Source of the DNA: Rhizophagus irregularis
Lineage: Eukaryota
NCBI RefSeq assembly: GCF_026210795.1
Contig: NC_089432.1
Location: 5,084,001-5,148,000, forward strand
Direction of reading: 5' to 3'
DNA length: 64,000 nucleotides
Shown: positions 20,838 to 41,941 of the stretch, in pieces
Layout of the letters: every line of letters starts with the position of its first letter
How positions within the stretch are numbered: the stretch's first letter is position 1
Translations under genes and position numbers: made by a program
The notes under the pieces: generated by a model
Told to the model about the DNA's origin: nothing
The model's input: the letters and a program-made list of their open reading frames with translations, nothing else
Databases searched by the model: none

Positions 20838-22876
20838 TTATATATTAGCAGAGGAACCTGAAGGATCTGCTTCTGAAGAGTCGTCAGCTTTAGCAGGGAT
20901 GTAACGCCTTCATTTTAATCGATCAATGGAACCATATATGGGTATGGGTAAAGTGTGATGTAGTAAGACGTTTGTATGGACGTCTTTCGATTTCCTTGGT
21001 ATCATCAGAAGTAATGACATTCGAATCCTATTGCGAAGGATTGTTAATATAATATCTTCCGCCTTTAGAAGGAACGTAAAGTTCATCATTCGTCATAGGT
21101 GGGATAACAGATATGCTCTTTCCAAGATTAAAGGCATCGTTGAAGGTGGTCATTTCTTGGTAAAGTTTAAGTTGGAAGTTAATATTACCTTCCATCATGC
21201 TATATCGTGAAGCGAGATTCGACATATTTTGGTGGTGATACTCAGATCGTAAAGAATGCCATTTTATGGCTCAGTTATGGCATTCGTAATGTTTAACACT
21301 TGTGCCGTGTAGGGCAGCTTCTTGCTTTCCTTTCCCTTTAATAAGGTCTTGAATACGATCATTTTCTTTGACAAGCAATTGTTGACGTTCCTCAAGAGAT
21401 GAGCGTGAAGGAGGTGGTGTTGATTTACGTTCAAGATCCAACTTATACATATAAGTAAACCATTCGCGAGATCCAGGAATAATAAATTCACCTGAGGCCG
21501 TATAAAGAGGCTTCTTAGGAATAATGTCTTTGTATTTTGACGGAAAAAACCCATTCGGGATAGGGTTATATTGTTCGACCGTATAAATTAAAAGGTCTTT
21601 CTTGGGAGTAATCTCCTGATTGTAAGGAATCTTGAAGCCATAGTCGGGATAATCAAGACCATGGGTGTATTGAAGATATTTAATCGGCTTGTAGATATAT
21701 TGCGATGGTAAAAATAAAAACCGGTAGCGTTGAGCAGTAATCAGCTGGTGCTTCATTGTATCAAGGCGATTATGTTCCTTGGCATGAAAAATTCATCGGC
21801 ATGCCCTATGATGGCGTATTTTCTGCGCTTTCGCTATTTTAGCATTTTTACTACGCGTAACTGAAAAGGTGTCCAGCCATTTACGATACATTTGCTTATT
21901 CACATGATGTATAACTAAGCCTTTAGTACGAGCAAGATAAGATTCCTTATAACTAATTCCCAATCGTTGGGATACAACATCTTTTTTCCATCTGCAATTC
22001 CATCTGTCATGTAACAAATTAGCATGTGAGCGCTTGTCGTTGACCGGAGTAGTAATGGTTGAGGTGAGGTCCTGACGTCCATGATTTCGGACATTATTGA
22101 AAGTATCATTACGAAAGAAAAGTTGTTGATGCATAACACAGGAGCGTCTACATTGAGACATAACAAAGGGGCTAGGAACTTGACATTTATTACAAGGGTG
22201 TAAAACGGTGAATGTGATGGTTGTTGAGAACAAGGGATATATTCCAAAATGAAAATGATATTTCTTATATGTGAAATTAAAAAAAGTACGAGTCGTAGTA
22301 TTATGTTCACGTAAATTATTAGCACGTGATGAAATCATTTCTTTACGAGCCAATAATCTATCTCGAATAAAAGAAAAAAATTTTTGTTGTATTTTGCGAG
22401 GTAAAACTCTTTGTGAAGAAAAAAAGTGTGTAAGCATACAACTAATTCTATATTTGTCATTCAGTGTTGAGCTCGTGTTGTGATAAAAGATAGGGGTACT
22501 TTTCATATGATAATCATTTGTGTAAATTTTAAGATGAATATCATTGGTGTTTTGAGGTAGATCATTTAACTTGAAAAAGTAACTTCTTGATCGTCTGATT
22601 TCATAAATCTTGTTGTATCCAGCCCTATTTGGACGGGTCACGTGAAATTTAGAAAAACGGAAATTTTCCCACCGGCGAAGAAGAGGAAGAAGGTTTATTA
22701 AAAGGTTTTTTACTATGAGAAGTGTAAGAAGGAGTTGAAGGAGCGTGAGATATAATATCTTTACGAGTAGAAATTTTGTCTAAAACTCTTTTATTAGAGT
22801 GTTGGTTAAGGTTAGTGAAATCATTATTTGGTTTTTCGTAACTTTCATAATCGTCTATGCGAAGAAAAGAGGACAT
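20838..22876 (-). pseudogene. Unit B ORF: basic protein of unknown function, ~680 codons, broken by stops and frameshifts
   Basis: ORF pieces 22649-22918, 21793-22641, 21271-21756 and 21028-21225 are collinear with the unit A protein; the last three share one frame and are separated by single stop codons. No introns are needed. Confidence 0.8.
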
Positions 22877-23505: not shown

Positions 23506-25147
23506 TTATTTAGACGATCCTGCCTGCTCAGAATCAAGAGCTAAAGGAGTATCTAGGCGAGAGCGTTTACGTATGCCATAAGAACTCGAGTTATTATCAA
23601 AGTTGCGATCATTATGTTTCGAAGGACGGTATTCAATTTCTTTGGTGTCATCGGACGTGGATGACTCGGTAGGGAGTGTATTATCCTTATAAAAGAATAC
23701 TGATCGTGTGGTAATACACTTTAAACTAAGAGGAGCTAATACGCCAGGGTAGTTAATAAAAAAAGAATCTATTTCCGATTGTAAGAGTTTCTTCTTTTTG
23801 CTTTTCTTTTTCTTGGAAGGGGTAATAGGTTGAGAATTTTTCATATTAACATGATAAACATCGCTCCACCTCATTAAATCAGACACTTGACGTTGTCAAT
23901 ATTTAACGTTTTTAGAACTAGTGCCATGGTATAAGGCTAAATCATGAATTCTAATATCTTCTTGTATTATAAGATCGGTTATTTCCTTTGAACGTTCTTC
24001 TAGATGCTGTTGATAACGAACTCTAGAAGCTTCACCTTCAACAGTAAGTTCATCAATTCTAGCGGTAAATTTAGCATCATCTGCTTTTCTAAGGCGTTCA
24101 TCATGGGTATCTAAATCCAATTGATACATATAAGTAAACCATTCCCTAAAGCCAGGGCAATAAATGAACCAAAATGATCATAAATAGGATCAGGTGGTAT
24201 TATATCTCGATATTTGAGAGGAATAAACATGTCCGGAGTAGGATTATAAGGAGCGACCGTATATAATATTTCATTGTTAAGAACTGAAGCTGAAGTCGTA
24301 GCTGTGGCAATGGAAAAATTACTTGTAGCCTTTGGTCGGCTGGTCGTATTCGTATTAGTACCAAAATAATGAGGAATAGTAAAATTATAATCCTTTTGTT
24401 TGGGAATATCAACAGTTTTCTTATAACGTAAGTGTTTGAGAGGAGTCGTAAATTTTTGAGATGGTAAGAAAAGGAATCGTCCTTTTTTAGCCGTGGCCAG
24501 TTTCGTTGATGTACTGGAAACAGCTCCTGGTTTAGTAACTTCTTGTGATAAGATACGATGACAAGAGCGTTCGAATCTAATTTGCTGCTTTTTAGCTGTC
24601 CTCAGATTAGGACTTGGAGTTAGTTGGAAGTTATTCATAAGTTTGTGATAAATGTGAGTACGTCCAGGTCTGAGTTTACGATTTGAATTGCAAACAACAT
24701 ATTTTGAGTTATAAGAGATGCCCGTTCTTGAGGAGAATATCGATTTTGATTCTTTTTTTATCCATCGGTCAAATGTCAAATTAGCGTGGAACTGTTTATT
24801 TTGATGTTGATTACTACATGTAAAATCACCATGTTCGTTTCGTACAAAAGCTATTGCAGCTGGGTATTTGTGAAAAAAATGTAAGCCACATCCATATCTC
24901 TTATTAAACATTACTATAGGACAAGGAACCTCACAAGGTCGAGGTAGAATAGATAAGCCTTTTGTCTCAATCATATGGTCACAAGGGATAAAGATACCAA
25001 AATGAAATCTATATCTTTTGTACGAGAAATTAAAAAAAGTTTTCATTGTTGTATTCTTATTGTTGATTTTACTCTCACGTGACTTGATAAACGTGATTCT
25101 ATCTAATAACTTTTGGCGTATCATATCAAAATATTTTTTTTGAATAC
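23506..25147 (-). pseudogene. Unit A ORF, C-terminal part (paralog of unit B protein)
   Basis: Pieces 24111-25124, 23896-24129 and 23506-23886 share FFNFxYKxYxFHFGI, HANL..DRW, GISY, FLFLPSQ, KYxDIIP, HGTS and TSDDTKEIE with unit B; one frameshift near 24155 and one internal TGA. Confidence 0.82.
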
Positions 25148-28030
25148 TGTTAATCGAATAATCACATGACCAGTGATCATGTTACGAATGTTACGAATGT
25201 TACGAATGTTGCAAATGTTACGAATGTTTAATATGTTTAACATGTTAAACATATGCAACATATTAAATATATAACACATATTTAACATATTACATTTGTT
25301 AAATATATAGCATTTATTTAATATTCTTAACATGATTAGCATAGAATTTATTGTTATAAATACATGCGTTCTAAATCAATGTAATAATAGATAATTCTGT
25401 TATATTTTAATAAAAAGCATTTATTAAATAAATTACATCAGGAAGTCACGGGAAAAATATTCATCAAATGTACATCGGTCACTTGATGTACATCATAAAG
25501 AAACGCTGAACATCGGACCCTGCAATGTACTACTGATGTCACAACATTTGATGTTCATCGCCAAATTAAAGATGTTCATCACCTGTACATTACGATTAAT
25601 TAACACATTTATTAATGATATTAAAATACATGCGTTATTTATTATTATACTATCATTATACTATACAAATGTATTATTAACTAATTAATATAATATCTAT
25701 GGCTATTTTAAATCTATATAATATGTTAAATACTAGATAAAAATTGATTTCCAAAATAAACCTATAAAGAAAAAAATGAAAATGTTAATAAAACTTTTCG
25801 TTAAAAATAAAAAAAAGTAAAATTCGAAGGGATATATATACCTTCGAAATAGGATCCAGTCGCGTCTTGGACCTACAAAAGAAAAAAAAATGAAACCGTT
25901 AGTAAAAACGTTTCGTTAGAAAAAATAAAAATTTGAAGGTACTGTATATACCTTCGAAATTCCATATAACTGAGTGATCCCAGATCCTACAAAAAAAAAG
26001 CAAACAAAAAACGTTAGTTTACGTTTCTAAAAGAAAAATAAAAAAATCCAAGTTTCGAAGTGAATTGAAATCTTCGAAACTTACCAATCCGTTAAGATTC
26101 GTCTTCTTTTTCCGTTCTTCAGAAACCCACCCAAGATCTAAAAGAAGAAAAAGAATTAGAAATAACAAAAAAAATTAAAAAAATTAAAGATTCGTATTGT
26201 CCTTACGAATCTTTGGGTTTTCTGTTCTTCAGAAGCCCACCCAAAACCTAAAAATCAAAGAAAAGAACGGTTAGAAACCGTTCATAATAATAAAATAAAT
26301 AAAAATAAACCAAAGATTCGTACTTACGAATTTTGGTTTTTTCCATTTTTCAGAAGACACCCGAGAAACCCAAAACCTAAAAATAAAATAAAAAGAACGG
26401 TTAGAACCATTCATAGTATTAAAAAAAATAAATCTAAGGTTCGTAATATAATACTTACGAACCTTAGTTCTCCATTTTCCGTTCTTCAGAAGACCACCCG
26501 ATGGAACCTATAAAAAATAAAATAAAAAGAACAGTTAGAACCGTTCATAGTATTAAAAAAATAAATCTAAGGTTCGTAATATAATGCTTACGAACTTTAG
26601 TTTTTTGTTTTCCGTTCTTCGGAAGATCACCTGACAGAACTTATAAAAAATAAAATAAAAAGAACGGTTAGAACCGTCCATAGTATTAAAGAAATAAATC
26701 TAAGATTCGTAACTGAATATAATACTTACGAACCTTAGTTCTCCATTTTCCATTCTTCGGAAGCCCTTTCGAGACACCGAACCTATAAAAAAAAGAAAGG
26801 AACGGTTAGTAAACCGTTTCATAATAATAAAAAAAATAAAAAAAAACCAAGATTCTTACGAATCTTGGTTCCTCTTTGCGAAATCCCCTTCCACCATCCC
26901 CCTTTCCCAGTTTTTTACCTTAAAGTCTGGTTTCGTGAACAAGCTGGCGTCCTACAAAAAAAAAACAATGAAAAAGAAACGTTAGATCGTTTCTTAAATT
27001 AAAAATAACAAAAAATCTTCCACTTTCCAGTTTCTTACTACCTTAAAGTCTGGTTTCATAGTATTCAAGCCAGCGTCCCCCTAGTAAACGTCCTACAAAA
27101 AATAAAATAATAAAGAGAAACGTTAGTTCGTTTCTTAAATTAAAAATAACAAAAAATCTTCCCCTTTTCAGTTTCTTACTACCTTAAAGTCCGGTTTCAT
27201 AGTATTCAAGCCGGCGTCCCCCTAGTAAACGTCCTACAAAAAATAAAATAATGAAAAGAAACGAAAAAAAAAGATAAAATTAAAAAAAAAATAAAAAAAA
27301 AATAAATTAAAAAAAAGTAACGAAACTTACAGGTGTGAGAAAAAGAAGAGAACGAAAGGGAAGTGAAGGACGAAAGGAAAGGGAAGGATATAGGAGAAGG
27401 ACGAAAGGACAAGGGGACGAAGGGAAGTGAAAGAAAGGGAAAAAAAAAGTTTAAAGTTTTTTATTAGACTTTTTTTTATCAAAAAAAAGATCGATCGGCA
27501 AACTGATCACATGATACCGATCAATACTAACTGAAATTTACTAGTTAGTAATTATATTTTTATTATAGCAAAGATATGTACATTGAATATTTATTATTAA
27601 ATGCTGCACATCATGATAAAAATTTCATTGATGATGTTCATTAATGTTAAATATTACTTGTACATTAAAAAGAATGAATATTGCAATGTACATGATTTGC
27701 ATAAATGTATATGTAATGTACATTTTTTTCGTAACTTCCTGATGTATCTCATTGTTTATTTTATAGTTTGTTATATTTGTGAGTCAGTATTTGCGTCTGA
27801 GTGTATATGCCCGTGTGCAATACCGTATTCGCATTTGACTGAAATTTCATTTTATTTTATTGTGTAACCTTCGTAAATCGATCGACAGTGATACATTTAC
27901 TAATAATTTCATATAGTTTATTTCACTTTGCGTTCATTAACATTATTTAATATTTATTTTATTCATAATCCTTCTGCTTACCATACACCCATACGCTTAT
28001 TTTTATAAGCATACAAGAACTGGCATAACA
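25148..28030 (+). repeat. 5' LTR (572 bp plus a 2.3-kb TIR-element insertion)
   Basis: 25148-25435 and 27747-28030 match the 3' LTR almost base for base; contains GTTACGAAT 9-mer repeats. Confidence 0.95.
25436..27744. mobile_element. Non-autonomous TIR element with TA target duplication (Tc1/mariner-like or another TA-TSD family), 2309 bp
   Basis: TIRs CATCAGGAAGTCACGGGAAAAAT / ATTTTTTTCGTAACTTCCTGATG flanked by TA. The empty site AAATTATCTCATT is visible in the 3' LTR at ~35388. No transposase ORF. Confidence 0.92.
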
Positions 28031-33075: not shown

Positions 33076-33886
33076 TAGAGCTCTGAACAGGTCAGCCAAA
33101 TTCAGGTAACCTGACCTGACCTGACCTGAAATTCAGGTCAGGTATGAGATTTTTAAAAAAAATTCAGGTCAGGTATGAAGATTGACCTGACCTGTTGACC
33201 TGAAACTATTGATTCTACTATATAATAAAAGTGAGTTGCAGTATTGCGATTCACTTTTTTATATTGATTTTATATAATAATAGTGAGTTGCAGTATTGCG
33301 ATTCACTTTTTTATATAGATTCTATATAAAAAAAGTGAGTTGCGGTATTGCGATTCACTTTTTTATATAGAATTAATATAAAAATGTGAATTGCAATACT
33401 GCAACTCACTTTTTTTATACAAAATCAATATAAAAAAGTGAATTGCAGTATTGGGATTCACTTTTTTATATGATTTTAATATAAAAATGTTGAATCGCAA
33501 TATTTCAAGAAAAAACATTGCGAAAACGTTTTTTCATAATATTATATTAAAAAAATGTTTTGTAACGTTTTTTTTTTTGATATTTCAATAATAGCATTGT
33601 GAAAACATTTTTTTCATAATGTTATATTAAAAAAAACGTTTTGCAATATTTTTTTTCAATATTTTAATAAAAAACGTTGCAAAAACGTTTTTTTTCATAA
33701 TATTATATTAAAAAAAAAAAGGTTTGTACCGTTTTTTTTCAATACTTTAATAAAAATTTTTCAGGTTTCAGGTCAGGTCAGGTCAAACAGACAACCTGAT
33801 ATAACCTGACCTGACCTGACCTGAAAAAAAATTTCAGGTCAGGTTTATCAATTAACCTGACCTGACCTGACCCATTCGGAGCTCTA
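33076..33886. mobile_element. hAT-type MITE, 811 bp, inserted in the integrase
   Basis: TIRs TAGAGCTCTGAACAGGTCAG / CTGACCCATTCGGAGCTCTA; 8-bp TSD GGTAGAGC (33068-33075, 33887-33894); excision restores GLVERFNR. Contains (CCTGA)n subterminal repeats and two palindromic minisatellites. Confidence 0.94.
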
Positions 33887-34659
33887 GGTAGAGCGCTTCA
33901 ACCGAACGTTATGTGAAGCCCTTGCCAAATATGCCAATACAAATAAAGACGATTGGGATTTGTACCTATCATCTGTTTTATTTGCATACAGGACGAAAAG
34001 CCATAGCACCACACGGCATGAACCTTTCTACTTGATGTATGGCCGTGATGCTGTGCTTCCAATAGAATTCGCTGTTTCCACTGCGCAAAGTAAATGCGCT
34101 GGGGAAAATTTCCAGGATGATCTCTTTAATCAAATTCACACCCTTACTGGAAAGGTGATAGTTGATCGCCTTGAAACACAAGATAATATATGCAAGGCGC
34201 AACAAAGGCAGAAAGAGCAACATGATGCAGGTCTTTCCGAAGTGCATTTTAAAATCGGAGACCTTGTGTTGCTATACCAAAGTCAACTAAGAGGCAAGCA
34301 AAAATTCCAAGAAAGATGGAAAGGCCCCTATTATGTGCATGAAATATTAGGAAATGGCGCATATAAGTTGCGCACAATTGAAGGAAAGATTTTAAAAGTT
34401 CCGGTGAATTCGGAACGGTTGAAATTGTATCACCAACGCATATAGACTATCATGCATGAATGCATGATTGATGATATAATGAATGCATGCATTTAATGTA
34501 TGCTAAAAAAAAAAAAAAAAAATTTTTTTTATTTTTATATATATATATATATAGTTTATTTATTATTTTTTTTTGTTTGTTTATTTATTATTATTATTAT
34601 TTTTGTTTATTGTTTATTGTTTATTATTATATTTATATATTGTTTAATTTAAAAAAAAA

Positions 34660-35127
34660 ATGGCCAAAATAAATGCTTATCAAAGAATCTTGGAAGATTT
34701 GCGACAATTACAACCAACCGAAATTGTGGCATATCCGCCACCTTATACGATTACCGCAGGCTTGGAAGAAAAATTTGATTTAATCAATGCTGCCATAGAA
34801 AGGTCCAAGCGCATTGATGACCGAATATTAATGCTAGCAAATGTCTACTATTTAGGACATTTTCTGGAAGTAGAAATTCGGGATAATACAAGACGCGGTC
34901 AATTTCTACAACAATTATCTATACATTTCCGGACGATTGCTATCCGAACTTATTATATATTTGAGGTCTCCGGAGTTGAACAGATTATGAGAACAACCCA
35001 TACAACCCCCACTATGATCCGGAAGCTCAGTACGGCAGAATATAAGGATTTGGTCTTTAAATCCATCGAAATTTTCAACGGGATTGAAAATCTGGGAGGG
35101 AGTGGTGTTAATCGAATAATCACATGA
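34660..35127 (+). CDS. Extra 155-aa ORF of the Gypsy element, unknown function
   Basis: Uninterrupted ORF of normal composition after an AT-rich spacer; it runs through the PPT (GGGAGGGAGTGG, 35094-35105) and stops inside the 3' LTR. Confidence 0.7.
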   Translation: MAKINAYQRILEDLRQLQPTEIVAYPPPYTITAGLEEKFDLINAAIERSKRIDDRILMLANVYYLGHFLEVEIRDNTRRGQFLQQLSIHFRTIAIRTYYIFEVSGVEQIMRTTHTTPTMIRKLSTAEYKDLVFKSIEIFNGIENLGGSGVNRIIT

Positions 35128-35679
35128 CCGGCGATCATGTTACGAATGTTACGAATGTTACGAATGTTGCAAATGTTACGAATGTTTAATATGTTTAACA
35201 TGTTAAACATATGCAACATATTAAATATATAACACATATTTAACATATTACATTTGTTAAATATATAGCATTTATTTAATATTCTTAACATGATTAGCAT
35301 AGAATTTATTGTTATAAATACATGCGTTCTAAATCAATGTAATAATAGATAATTCTGTTATATTTTAATAAAAAGCATTTATTAAATAAATTATCTCATT
35401 GTTTATTTTATAGTTTGTTATATTTGTGAGTCAGTATTTGCGTCTGAGTGTATATGCCCGTGTGTGCAATACCGTATTCACATTTGACTGAAATTTCATT
35501 TTATTTTATTGTGTAACCTTCGTAAATCGATCGACAGTGATACATTTACTAATAATTTCATATAGTTTATTTCACTTTGCGTTCATTAACATTATTTAAT
35601 ATTTATTTTATTCATAATCCTTCTGCTTACCATACACCCATACGCTTATTTTTATAAGCATACAAGAACTGGCATAACA
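35106..35679 (+). repeat. 3' LTR, 574 bp
   Basis: TG...CA ends, preceded by the PPT, matches the 5' LTR. Confidence 0.96.
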
Positions 35680-36185
35680 ATACGACGTGGAATAACTTTT
35701 TGTGAGGAAAAAAAATGCTGAAGACCTTTGCTAATTTGATATTTGGCGTTCGGTAGTGCGCTTGTGGAATGATACTTAATAGGGGTAGTTGACATGAGAT
35801 AATCATTTGTGTGTATCTGTAAATGAAGTTGATTGGTGTCCAAATGGTGATCAACAATCTCAAAAAAGAAACTTTTTGAATGTCTAAATTCGTAAATCTT
35901 GTTATAACCGGCTTTGTGTATTCTGGTCACGTGAAATTTTTTAAAAGAAATGAGAAAAGAATTATCGACATTAGGTGGAGTCGTTGTTGAAGAAATGGGA
36001 GATATAGAAGAAAAATCTTTTAATGGATAACCATCATTATTATTATATGGAGAAACTTGAGAATCAATGTCTGTAGTTGAATAAGGAGAACTATCTTGTG
36101 AAAATGAAGGGTCATCTATACGAATAAACGCGTGTGTTGATGAAGATGAAGACCAGTCTATTACTATAGAATTTGAAGAAGTCAT
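35680..36185 (-). pseudogene. Unit A ORF, N-terminal part, cut by the Gypsy insertion
   Basis: MTSSN...FHVTRIHKAGYNKIYE...HFFSSQKVIPRR. Removing the Gypsy and one ATAC copy rejoins it in frame as ...VIPRRIQKKYFDMIRQKLLDR, matching unit B VLPRKIQQKFFSFIRDRLL. Confidence 0.85.
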
Positions 36186-37656
36186 ATTCCCTTGGGTGTG
36201 GGTAAAATACTAACTAAAAACCTCGTATTCAACCAGAGGCGCCCTCTTGGGCCTCTTCCCCTTTAGCGTTTCAAATCAAAACTGAAAAAAACTAACTAGC
36301 GCAAAAATTACTGCGGAAAATTAACAAAATGTAAAAAAAGGGGAAAGAGTTTTTTTTCCAAGGTTTCAAAATAAACTTTAGCCGAAATTTATTGCAATAA
36401 ACCATAAAATTCCACGTGACCAAATTTATATACATTTCAAATACTAAGAATTGCAAAATATATGAATTAAGAAATACTGAAATACATACAAAATGAAACA
36501 ATTTTGCTATATTTTTTGCATATATCAATAATATATATATTTTATTAGTAGTTTATTTCAGTATATAAAATTAAATATCTGATATGTTATTTATATTACA
36601 AAAATATTTGTTAAATCATTAGTAATTTGGAAATTAGAATATATTAGTGATATGTTTAACGTATTTTATGAAAATCAAAAGATTCAGCAAAGTAATTATA
36701 ATTACAATACTTAGTATATTATTGTGTTTATTTGATTTACCAGTATTTTCAAAATTGACCAGTAAAATTTAATCCTTTATTTTAAACTATTTATTTGCAC
36801 AAATACGTCAACGAAATTTACACTATAAGTAACTTAAGATTTTCACTAAAAAAAAATCGATCATTGATCAGTTCATGTCTGACAATATAATCAGACGCAT
36901 GGTCTTCTAATGTTTAATAGGGTTCCTTGCCTTTATCATATTTGTCTTTTACTTCCCAGATCCTCGGCTTTTCTTACTTTGCCTAATATTAGTCATCTTA
37001 CTCGCTTAATTTACTTTATTTTCTCTAGAGGTAACATCCGCCGCATGTATGGACATATTTTTTTTGTCTATAGGTTGTAGTTTTTTTAGACTGGTGGAAT
37101 TATTTCTAAGTTAATGTCTAAATTAATCATAATACTGCTAGCTTTCATATTGACCAATTATTTTTTTATTATAATTTTTTTTCTTTTTTTTATGAAAAAG
37201 TGCGTTTTTGGAGATCTAAAGGAAATTCCAAACTTGTAATTTTAATTTTAATTTTCTAAAAATGATTGATTTTCCAGGTAAACAGGAAGTAATTCCATGG
37301 AATAAGTAAAGTATTAAGCTAGTATAACCTTTTATGTATAATCTAAACGTTAAGGTGCTATGGAATCATATTGAGACACTAAAAGTGATTATTTTTTTTT
37401 CTTTAAAATCCGAAAGATAAAATGTTGTAAGTAAAAATTTCAACTGATCAGCGAATGATTACCTCACTAATTCAGTACACGTGATTTAAGTCAGATTTTT
37501 TGTCTAAATAATCGACCTGCATGCACATGTGTGTAATTTGTTTAATTTGCGTAATTTGTGTAATTGTATACCTAAATTAAATAAAAACTTTTTCCTCTTC
37601 TTTTCGTACTCGGATAAATATAACTTTTCCATAACAATATTATATACATATTCAAA

Positions 37657-40861: not shown

Positions 40862-41941
40862 TAAAGTTCCCTGCCGAAATTAGGGAGTTTCGGCATGTCA
40901 AAATTGTCAAAACTATTTTGACATGTCAAAATTGTCGAAACCTAAAAATATTACATTTCACGTAATAACTCTGCGTCCAATGATCATAGAAAGATGCACT
41001 ATAGCTCGTTGGAATCGTCTCATAACGACGAGTCGAATGGTGGCTAAATCGTCTTTCTACGATCACTGGATGCCGAGATATTAAGCGAAACGTCAAAAAT
41101 CGGCATTTTGTATTTTGCGATACTGCGCCATTTGACGTTTCACTTAATAACTCGCCATCCAATGATCGTAGAAAGATGCACCATAGCTCGTTGGAATCGT
41201 CTCATAACGACGAGTCGAATGGTGGCTAAATCGTCTTTCTACGATCACTGGATGCCGAGATATTAAGCGAAACGTCAAAAATCGGCATTTTGTATTTTGC
41301 GATACTGCGCCATTTGACGTTTCACTTAATAACTCGCCATCCAATGATCGTAGAAAGATGCACCATAGCTCGTTGGAATCGTCTCATAACGATGAGTCGA
41401 ATGGTTGCTAATCGTCTTTCTACGATCACTGGATGCCGAGATATTGAGCGAAACGTCAAAAATCAGCATTTTGTATTTTGCGCTACTGCGCCGTTTGACG
41501 TTTCGTCTATTATCTCGGCATCCAATGATCGTAGAAAGATGATATTTAACCACCATTCGACTCGTCGTTATGAGACGAATCCAACGAGCTATGGTGCATC
41601 TTTCTACGATCATTGGATGCCGAGTTATTAAGTGAAACGTCAAATGGCGCAGTATCGCAAAATACAAAATGCTGATTTTTGACGTTTCGCTCAATATCTC
41701 GGCATCCAGTGATCGTAGAAAGACGATCTACCCACCATTCGACTCGTCGTTATGAGACGATTCCAACGAGCTATGGTGCATCTTTCTACGATCATTGGAC
41801 GCCGAGTTATTACGTGAAACGTAATATTTTTAGGTTTCGACAATTTTGACATGTCGAAACTATTTCGGCATTTCGGCATTTCTACAGGTTTTAGTTTCGA
41901 CATTTCGACAATAGCCTGTAGAGTTTTGGCAGGCAACTTTA
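40862..41941. mobile_element. hAT-type non-autonomous foldback element, 1080 bp, built from 182-bp repeats
   Basis: TIRs TAAAGTTCCCTGCCGAAA / TTTTGGCAGGCAACTTTA; 8-bp TSD GTTATAAT (40854-40861, 41942-41949). Direct repeats at 40978, 41160 and 41342, then inverted copies at ~41550-41860. Confidence 0.9.

What the first reader, a model, noticed from the sequence alone, without database searches (positions are those of the whole stretch)
25760..27450. Transposon filled with ~12 micro-exon/intron-like units whose splice signals sit in hairpins
Seen (minus strand): repeated 100-140 bp units, each with a GTAAG/GTATA/GTAGT donor, usually a CTAAC branch point, a poly-T tract and a TAG acceptor. Acceptors lie near 27234, 27093, 26952, 26783, 26640, 26508, 26377, 26248, 26138, 25987, 25873 and 25762, separating exons of ~30-60 nt. 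In most units the donor lies in or beside an inverted repeat that keeps pairing as the sequence changes (CTAAGGTTCGTAA/TTACGAACCTTAG, AAAGATTCGTA/TACGAATCTTT, TTCGAAGG/CCTTCGAA). The branch point often lies in a second one (GAACGG-TTAGAA-CCGTTC). No long ORF. Inference: a heavily spliced, probably non-coding RNA. It might help evade silencing, or stalled splicing might feed small-RNA production. It is antisense to the host LTR.
Basis: partly seen in the sequence, partly recalled or inferred. Interest (0 to 1): 0.72.

Follow-up and report, generated by a model that had tools for sequence, protein, structure and literature searches.

The report
Fungal transposon carrying spliced micro-exon array
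A short jumping gene, likely from a root-symbiotic fungus, has no long reading frame but carries twelve tandem mini-intron units, most with splice signals predicted to fold into hairpins; RNA of this family is spliced at five or more of them, and the array is likely the leftover untranslated leader of a larger, gene-carrying transposon.

Summary
Positions 25436-27744 are a 2,309-bp non-autonomous DNA transposon (CATCA..TGATG ends, apparent TA duplication), best matching PlavakaB, inserted in a young Gypsy LTR in Rhizophagus-like DNA. Its minus strand has 12 intron-like units (10 pass a strict filter; shuffles give 0.2). Poly(A) reads show GT..AG joints at 5 of 12 introns and indirectly a sixth; 36 further joints were not displayed. 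The one such joint listed among contigs is in an RNA-like run, not in two DNA-like runs. One intron uses a donor 4 nt upstream of the predicted one. The evidence is family-level, since most reads come from relatives, and unspliced sequence is abundant too. Nine donors and ten branch points sit in predicted hairpins with double-sided changes, but the units are tandem duplicates. The spliced product has no credible ORF. Two relatives with the same 3' end carry a co-oriented protein gene there, so the array is likely the parent element's untranslated leader; no molecule holding both was seen. Silencing and small-RNA roles are untested; antisense position is likely incidental. New variant of a known kind.

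The parts
25436..27744 (-). Non-autonomous TIR DNA transposon, PlavakaB-like, 2,309 bp
   Evidence: Absent from the 99%-identical 3' LTR; ends fit CATCA..TGATG
25434..25435 (.). Left copy of apparent 2-bp target duplication TA
   Evidence: Filled versus empty LTR; could also be read as TIRs one base longer with no duplication
27745..27746 (.). Right copy of apparent TA duplication
25436..25450 (+). TIR at the 3' end of the transcript (15-bp core, imperfect to about 25475)
   Evidence: same end in L002 and L008
27730..27744 (-). TIR at the 5' end of the transcript
   Evidence: same end in L006
25468..25579 (.). Four subterminal ATGTWCAT repeats (likely transposase or accessory-protein sites; inferred)
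   Evidence: 8 in the element's ends versus 8 strand-counts in the other 61.7 kb
27576..27723 (.). Four subterminal ATGTWCAT repeats
27331..27470 (-). Pyrimidine-rich first exon; start approximate, promoter inferred upstream
   Evidence: poly(A) read cover fades at about 27470; TIR-to-first-donor stretch 97% identical to L006
27234..27330 (-). Intron 1 (97 nt), no strong hairpin; joint not among displayed rows
27093..27182 (-). Intron 2 (90 nt), branch-point hairpin; splicing supported indirectly
   Evidence: joint 27080/27182 with 10 letters between that restore the exon start (6, 7, 18, 4 reads)
26952..27041 (-). Intron 3 (90 nt), branch-point hairpin; spliced
   Evidence: CT..AC skip 90 (7, 4, 16, 7 reads)
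26783..26859 (-). Intron 4 (77 nt), donor GTAA in the loop of an 11-bp stem; much unspliced sequence, joint not displayed
   Evidence: X7 record 29
26640..26729 (-). Intron 5 (90 nt), AAG acceptor; alternative donor 26733
26508..26591 (-). Intron 6 (84 nt), both hairpins; own joint not displayed
26377..26462 (-). Intron 7 as spliced (86 nt, donor AAG|GTTCGT inside the 13-bp stem; predicted GTAAG donor is 26458)
   Evidence: 10, 10, 6, 2 reads; X7 only
26248..26327 (-). Intron 8 (80 nt), both hairpins; spliced
   Evidence: 9, 9, 10, 1 reads
26138..26206 (-). Intron 9 (69 nt), donor hairpin only; reads join this donor to other exon-8-like exons
   Evidence: tables 5c and 7
25987..26084 (-). Intron 10 (98 nt), donor at the edge of the hairpin; spliced
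   Evidence: 3, 7, 3, 1 reads
25873..25951 (-). Intron 11 (79 nt), both hairpins; joint not displayed
25762..25841 (-). Intron 12 (80 nt); spliced to the last exon
   Evidence: 4, 5, 7, 2 reads
25650..25761 (-). Last exon, AT-rich; 3' end approximate
   Evidence: read cover falls below 1 beyond about 25650
25148..28028 (+). Host Gypsy 5' LTR, split by the element
35106..35679 (+). Host Gypsy 3' LTR (empty site used as reference)

Best explanation
This is a non-autonomous DNA transposon, likely of the PlavakaB type, whose family makes a spliced RNA, found in poly(A) libraries, from a tandemly amplified exon-intron unit with no long reading frame; the array is likely the untranslated 5' leader of a longer, gene-carrying parent, with predicted hairpins that would slow or shift splice-site use. 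Shown: ends, insertion site, 12 units, family-level splicing of 5-6 of them, no credible ORF, and a protein gene before the same 3' end in two relatives. Inferred: transcription starts from the element's own promoter inside the 5' end. One exon-intron unit was duplicated repeatedly into three unit types, and the donor slid among several positions on the same hairpin arm. Selection keeps the units spliceable, probably because a multi-intron leader lets the parent's mRNA be processed and exported like a host mRNA, while hairpins over donor and branch point would throttle full maturation. The window copy has kept promoter, leader and 3' end and lacks the coding part, so its own RNA is probably a by-product.
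For: Ends and duplication fit PlavakaB; Plavaka is prevalent in R. irregularis. CT..AC joints at introns 3, 7, 8, 10 and 12 in 4 of 4 raw-read runs. Among the 15 of 33 contig joints shown, the only CT..AC joint and the exon-repeat joints are in RNA-like X7 and absent from DNA-like X1 and X19. Stops in all frames, exon lengths mixed mod 3. L008 and L002 share the 3' end and carry a co-oriented, intron-containing gene, an unnamed 439-aa R. irregularis protein with 20 cluster members, whose predicted N-terminus is not from the array. L006 shares the 5' end at 97% but has at least 4 type-A units at 84-91% identity, so the array changes unit number. Across five type-A units the donor bases are 6 of 6 invariant and the last 13 exon bases 12 of 13, against 5 of 22 in the purine-rich intron part. 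Double-sided stem changes occur between unit types.
Against: No contig or read holds both the array and the protein gene; L002 and L008 could be sister families without an array. The spliced array holds 8 ATGs against 11.7 +/- 3.2 in shuffles, so it is not clearly depleted, which is poor for a leader; four of them are ACG in sister units, by eye. None of the displayed loose ends matched the start of the 439-aa protein, by eye (most rows hidden). Only 223 of 1221, 223 of 1549, 110 of 928 and 43 of 163 reads are 99% alike, and about 70% run on into other sequence, so this locus itself is not shown to be expressed. Hairpin-covered donors are spliced, so a throttle is not shown; libraries look unstranded, so intron reads may be antisense or pre-mRNA. 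G-U versus A-C mismatches in stems are 5 versus 2 in the window by hand count, too few to show RNA-level selection; template switching can mimic compensation. No transposase was found.
Confidence: 0.5

Rival explanations
1. Neutral tandem repeat. An ordinary leader intron was duplicated by slippage inside a non-autonomous element, its inverted repeats were perfected at DNA level by template switching, and splicing is incidental.
For: Units are tandem duplicates with variable number. Other repeats in the window are also palindrome-rich (33076-33887, 40956-41541). Some stems are broken or bulged (units 4, 6, 8, 11, L006 unit); intron 5 has an AAG acceptor.
Against: Stems sit only over donor and branch point; a genome-window scan finds this branch-point design 6 times, all in the array. 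Donor and exon-end bases are far more conserved than adjacent intron bases. Diverged exon variants in reads are still spliced at the same boundaries (table 7).
Confidence: 0.22
2. Dedicated non-coding cargo. The short element is a family of its own, and its slowly spliced RNA feeds small-RNA production, or buffers silencing, against the family.
For: The last array intron is spliced to the window-type last exon. One 278-nt contig over that end has no differences and depth 1050 against 85-135 for several other listed contigs in X19, hinting at several near-identical short copies (depth is not copy number). Unspliced sequence is abundant. Stalled spliceosomes trigger siRNA in Cryptococcus (passage citing Dumesic 2013); R. 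irregularis TEs make small RNAs.
Against: No small-RNA data were examined. No sharp read starts at branch points (table 6: none). Exon middles vary freely; no Rfam match.
Confidence: 0.2
3. A micro-exon protein gene for a short repeated basic peptide.
For: One splice combination of the 128 tried gives a 108-codon ATG frame with repeated KNGKW-like motifs; exon 6 is 45 nt with the read-supported donor.
Against: Type-A exons have stops in all three frames in the window and in two of three L006 units; exon lengths do not keep phase; an 84-87-codon frame arises with the default splicing, and these frames switch phase between homologous exons.
Confidence: 0.05
4. Mobile introns (introner-like elements) that inserted repeatedly into one exon.
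For: Similar introns with predicted structure, as in fungal introner-like elements and sister stwintrons.
Against: Exons are duplicated together with the introns; the donor hairpin includes exon bases; the design occurs nowhere else in the window.
Confidence: 0.03

Closest known systems
PlavakaB DNA transposons (CMCT clade; PMC12730594, passages and a supplement search)
   Same: 5'-CATCA..TGATG-3' ends and a 2-bp duplication; Plavaka is prevalent in R. irregularis (PMC11075540, passages).
   Different: No transposase here. The passages read describe no micro-exon array. The two PlavakaB rows shown from the supplement begin CATCT and CATCG, none held CATCAGGAAG, and none is from Rhizophagus; Figure S2 was not seen.
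En/Spm (CACTA) and its dSpm deletion derivatives (recalled, no call)
   Same: Short TIRs, subterminal repeats, promoter at one end, untranslated first exon, accessory gene before the 3' end, internal-deletion derivatives.
   Different: Ends are CATCA, not CACTA; here a dozen duplicated non-coding micro-exons with structured splice sites follow the first exon.
Spliced TE-derived lncRNAs of Blumeria hordei (PMC10648671, passages)
   Same: Spliced non-coding RNAs from fungal transposons, with intron retention common.
   Different: Those are antisense to TE genes and rarely have more than five exons (<1.9%); this one has 13 predicted exons, is built by tandem duplication, and runs in the sense of the family's gene.
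Introner-like elements and sister stwintrons (PMC8469720, passages)
   Same: Families of similar spliceosomal introns with predicted secondary structure.
   Different: Those insert singly into unrelated genes and have intron-long terminal repeats; here exon plus intron repeat in tandem, with two short local hairpins over the splice signals.
Stalled-spliceosome siRNA pathway of Cryptococcus (PMC6643885, passages citing Dumesic 2013, not read)
   Same: Transposon RNA with potentially slow introns in an RNAi-competent fungus.
   Different: There weak introns betray the transposon; here consensus signals are strong but covered by predicted stems, and no small RNA link was tested.

Membership tests
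PlavakaB (CMCT) | Termini 5'-CATCA..TGATG-3' | tested here: met
   All five ends seen are preceded by A, so the true end could be one base longer.
PlavakaB (CMCT) | 2- or 3-bp target-site duplication | tested here: met
   TA at the one site with an empty reference; a no-duplication reading is not excluded
PlavakaB (CMCT) | Plavaka-type DDE transposase in the autonomous partner | not testable with these tools
   No full-length element retrieved. The 3' gene has no Pfam hit; Atlas neighbours are unnamed basidiomycete proteins, DUF6532 and DUF6698, leads only.
Tc1/mariner or ESTA (TA-specific) | Insertion always at TA | tested here: not met
   The three other ends are flanked by AA, GA and AA
U2 spliceosomal introns | GT..AG excision in RNA | tested here: met
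   5 of 12 directly, a sixth indirectly, at family level; 36 joints not displayed
U2 spliceosomal introns | Joined form absent from DNA | tested here: inconclusive
   Absent from X1 and X19 in the 15 of 33 rows shown; these runs are DNA by my reading only, and contigs show presence, not absence
Long non-coding RNA | Over 200 nt, no credible ORF | tested here: met
   About 0.8 kb spliced; stops in all frames; translation not measured
Multi-intron 5' leader of a transposon gene | Array exons joined to coding exons in one transcript | tested here: inconclusive
   No such link among displayed loose ends; no contig holds both
Introner-like elements | Same intron at unrelated genic positions, exons not duplicated | tested here: not met
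   Exons co-duplicated; no such unit elsewhere in the window; genome-wide not testable
Known structured RNA families (snoRNA host, mirtron) | Rfam match or intron-long hairpin | tested here: not met
   0 at gathering score; 3 chance-level hits; hairpins are local

The most novel reading that the evidence does not exclude
Plavaka transposons of mycorrhizal fungi carry a purpose-kept, expandable cassette of hairpin-gated introns: a splicing rheostat that sets whether transposon RNA matures as mRNA or is diverted to silencing, spread on its own by short non-autonomous copies, and generating new introns by tandem duplication and donor sliding.
Probability: 0.2. Interest if true: 0.82.

Novelty: new variant of a known kind. 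Interest (0 to 1): 0.55.

Why it matters
Two-thirds of R. irregularis transposons are unclassified (PMC11075540, abstract), and the passages read on its TEs do not mention introns. A DNA transposon with a dozen real, structured, non-coding introns gives a natural series for asking how splicing affects transposon silencing in fungi, how hairpins over donor and branch point shift splice-site choice (a non-consensus AG|GTTCGT donor is used instead of a perfect GTAAGT 4 nt away), and how introns multiply by tandem duplication. It also warns that such arrays can yield false gene models. If the array is neutral, the interest falls to an unusual transcribed repeat.

Tried and rejected
No genome was held for the window, so full-length copies could not be read. 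Metagenome TIR scan: 9 loci, 3 real family ends (L002, L006, L008), 6 chance. Viral-contig scans: 96 TIR-pattern loci, none family by BLAST; 0 for the protein; 1 and 3 chance hits for array motifs. Prokaryote genome scans: 0 hits, then 1 bacterial chance hit. Run search: no indexed holder is on record as RNA; the raw runs came in by species label. Places without cover in contigs were not used. Summed contig depth was not used as copy number. Structure prediction of the 3' gene protein failed (mean pLDDT 33.6), so no fold search was run. Its 92 distant homologues gave no meaningful Pfam hit in the 13 scanned, plus one closer protein. A protein search with the longest array exon was not possible because it is too short. 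Automatic alignments of the hairpins were out of register, so pairs were counted by script or hand, fitted to each fold. Earlier-findings look-ups returned nothing relevant. Paper searches for this anatomy returned nothing fitting; the library lacks most subscription journals, and Repbase was not searchable. Helitron ends, Tc1/mariner, introners and a coding gene were considered and ranked low as above.

Full report
Setting. The window is AT-rich DNA with kinase plus Sel1-like repeat paralogues (labels recalled) and a Gypsy element with gag, protease, RT and integrase. Its LTRs are 99% identical with a 4-bp duplication. No genome was held. The organism is inferred to be Rhizophagus or a close relative, because a contig that shares the element's end encodes a protein 98% identical to R. 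irregularis proteins.

The element. The 5' LTR has 2,309 extra bases (25436-27744) that the 3' LTR lacks. The ends are CATCAGGAAGT(C/T)ACG, TA appears duplicated, and eight ATGTWCAT repeats lie near the ends. PlavakaB families are described with 5'-CATCA..TGATG-3' ends and 2-3-bp duplications (PMC12730594, passages), and Plavaka is prevalent in R. irregularis (PMC11075540, passages). Three other ends from metagenome contigs are flanked by AA, GA and AA, which argues against TA-specific families. All five ends seen follow an A, so a one-base-longer TIR with no duplication is not excluded. No transposase was seen, so the assignment rests on the ends.

The array. Twelve intron-like units of 69-98 nt separate exons of 31-53 nt (one of 92) on the minus strand. 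Ten pass a strict filter, against 0 on the plus strand, 0.2 in shuffles and 0-2 in 35 other tiles. Donor hairpins are predicted in 9 of 12 units and branch-point hairpins in 10 of 12, against 1 of 10 each at control sites in the window and 0 of 4 and 1 of 4 in the L008 gene. The units fall into three types and are tandem duplicates, so they are not independent. The donor hairpin arm is homologous between the second and third types, with the donor at different positions along it. Stem columns show double-sided changes, for example A-T against C-G and C-G against G-C at the branch point. These may be only a few events, and template switching could produce them. By hand count G-U mismatches outnumber A-C 5 to 2 in the window, which is not significant.

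Splicing. Four raw-read runs were laid at 88% likeness (three poly(A), one labelled RT-PCR; three samples, two studies; about a quarter to a third of each read). Of 51 joints, 15 were shown; five are CT..AC: intron 3 (7, 4, 16, 7 reads), intron 7 (10, 10, 6, 2), intron 8 (9, 9, 10, 1), intron 10 (3, 7, 3, 1) and intron 12 (4, 5, 7, 2). Four match the predicted sites exactly. Intron 7 skips 86 nt, which places the donor at AAG|GTTCGT, 4 nt upstream of the better-scoring GTAAGT and inside the same stem. Intron 2 is supported by a joint whose in-between letters restore the exon start. 'Goes back' joints of 40-45 nt show exon repeats, best read as relatives with more units, as in L006; circular RNA is not excluded. 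Introns 1, 4, 5, 6, 9 and 11 are not among the rows shown. Cover runs from about 27470 to 25650. Against a simple reading: only 12-26% of reads are 99% alike, about 70% continue into other sequence, intron cover is high, the libraries look unstranded, and no sharp starts or ends were found. In contigs (15 of 33 joints shown), the only CT..AC joint and the exon repeats are in RNA-like X7 and absent from X1 and X19, which I read as DNA from their even cover of the TIRs. RNA-like X6 and X7 also hold unspliced, near-identical pieces.

Coding. The spliced product has stops in all frames; exon lengths do not keep phase; the best of 128 splice combinations gives 108 codons. Type-A exons are closed in all three frames in the window and in two of three L006 units. 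There is no Rfam match.

Relatives. L006 has the same 5' end (402 of 414 bases) and at least four type-A units, 84-91% alike. Across five type-A units the donor (6 of 6) and the last exon bases (12 of 13) are invariant, the branch-point hairpin 14 of 20, the purine-rich intron part 5 of 22 and the poly-T tract 4 of 18 (the last is indel-prone). L008 and L002 have the same 3' end, preceded by an intron-containing gene in the array's direction. Its product is an unnamed 439-aa protein with 20 cluster members and 92 homologous clusters, no Pfam family, an unusable model and only leads to DUF6532/DUF6698. Its predicted N-terminus does not come from the array.

Mechanism. The simplest whole picture is a parent element with promoter, multi-intron leader and genes, and a short derivative that kept the first two and the 3' end (0.5). 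The link between array and gene is inferred, not seen, and eight upstream ATGs count against it. A neutral tandem repeat (0.22) and a dedicated small-RNA-related cargo (0.2) remain open. What the hairpins do is untested: covered donors are spliced, and the one read-supported donor shift is compatible with, but does not prove, an effect of structure.

Literature seen. Passages of PMC12730594, PMC11075540, PMC8647823, PMC10648671, PMC6643885 and PMC8469720, one supplement search of PMC12730594 (two places per term; Figure S2 not seen), and search listings. None described this anatomy; curated TE libraries in unseen supplements or Repbase may hold the family. The En/Spm comparison is recalled.

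Verdict. A real, family-level spliced non-coding array in a likely PlavakaB derivative; new variant of a known kind; interest 0.55.

Noticed in passing
window 33076-33887: A second nested non-autonomous TIR element with an 8-bp duplication (hAT-like, label recalled) splits the Gypsy integrase; its interior is 52-nt and 80-nt palindromic tandem repeats.
   Followed up: partly
window 34648-35127: The Gypsy element carries an extra 159-aa ORF before its 3' LTR with no Pfam hit.
   Followed up: partly
window 21793-22779, 24111-25181, 35652-36209: Three related minus-strand ORFs; the two scanned have no Pfam hit. The Gypsy element appears to have split one of them.
   Followed up: partly
window 40956-41541: A 182-nt hairpin-rich tandem repeat, similar by eye to the DNA flanking the element end in L008.
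   Followed up: no
window 26459-26503 and 26202-26242: Exon-repeat joints in poly(A) reads and in one RNA-like contig; read here as relatives with extra units, but back-splicing was not excluded.
   Followed up: partly
L006 933-1339: This family end is inserted in decayed coding-like DNA that resembles a hAT transposase by eye; recalled, not confirmed by a search.
   Followed up: no
L008 1-1354 and L002 1-660: An unnamed multi-copy Rhizophagus protein family (439 aa, helical C-terminal half by a low-confidence model) sits before the transposon's 3' end and is probably its accessory gene.
   Followed up: partly
window 1400-54700: A cluster of at least six kinase plus Sel1-like repeat paralogues on both strands (labels recalled).
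   Followed up: no
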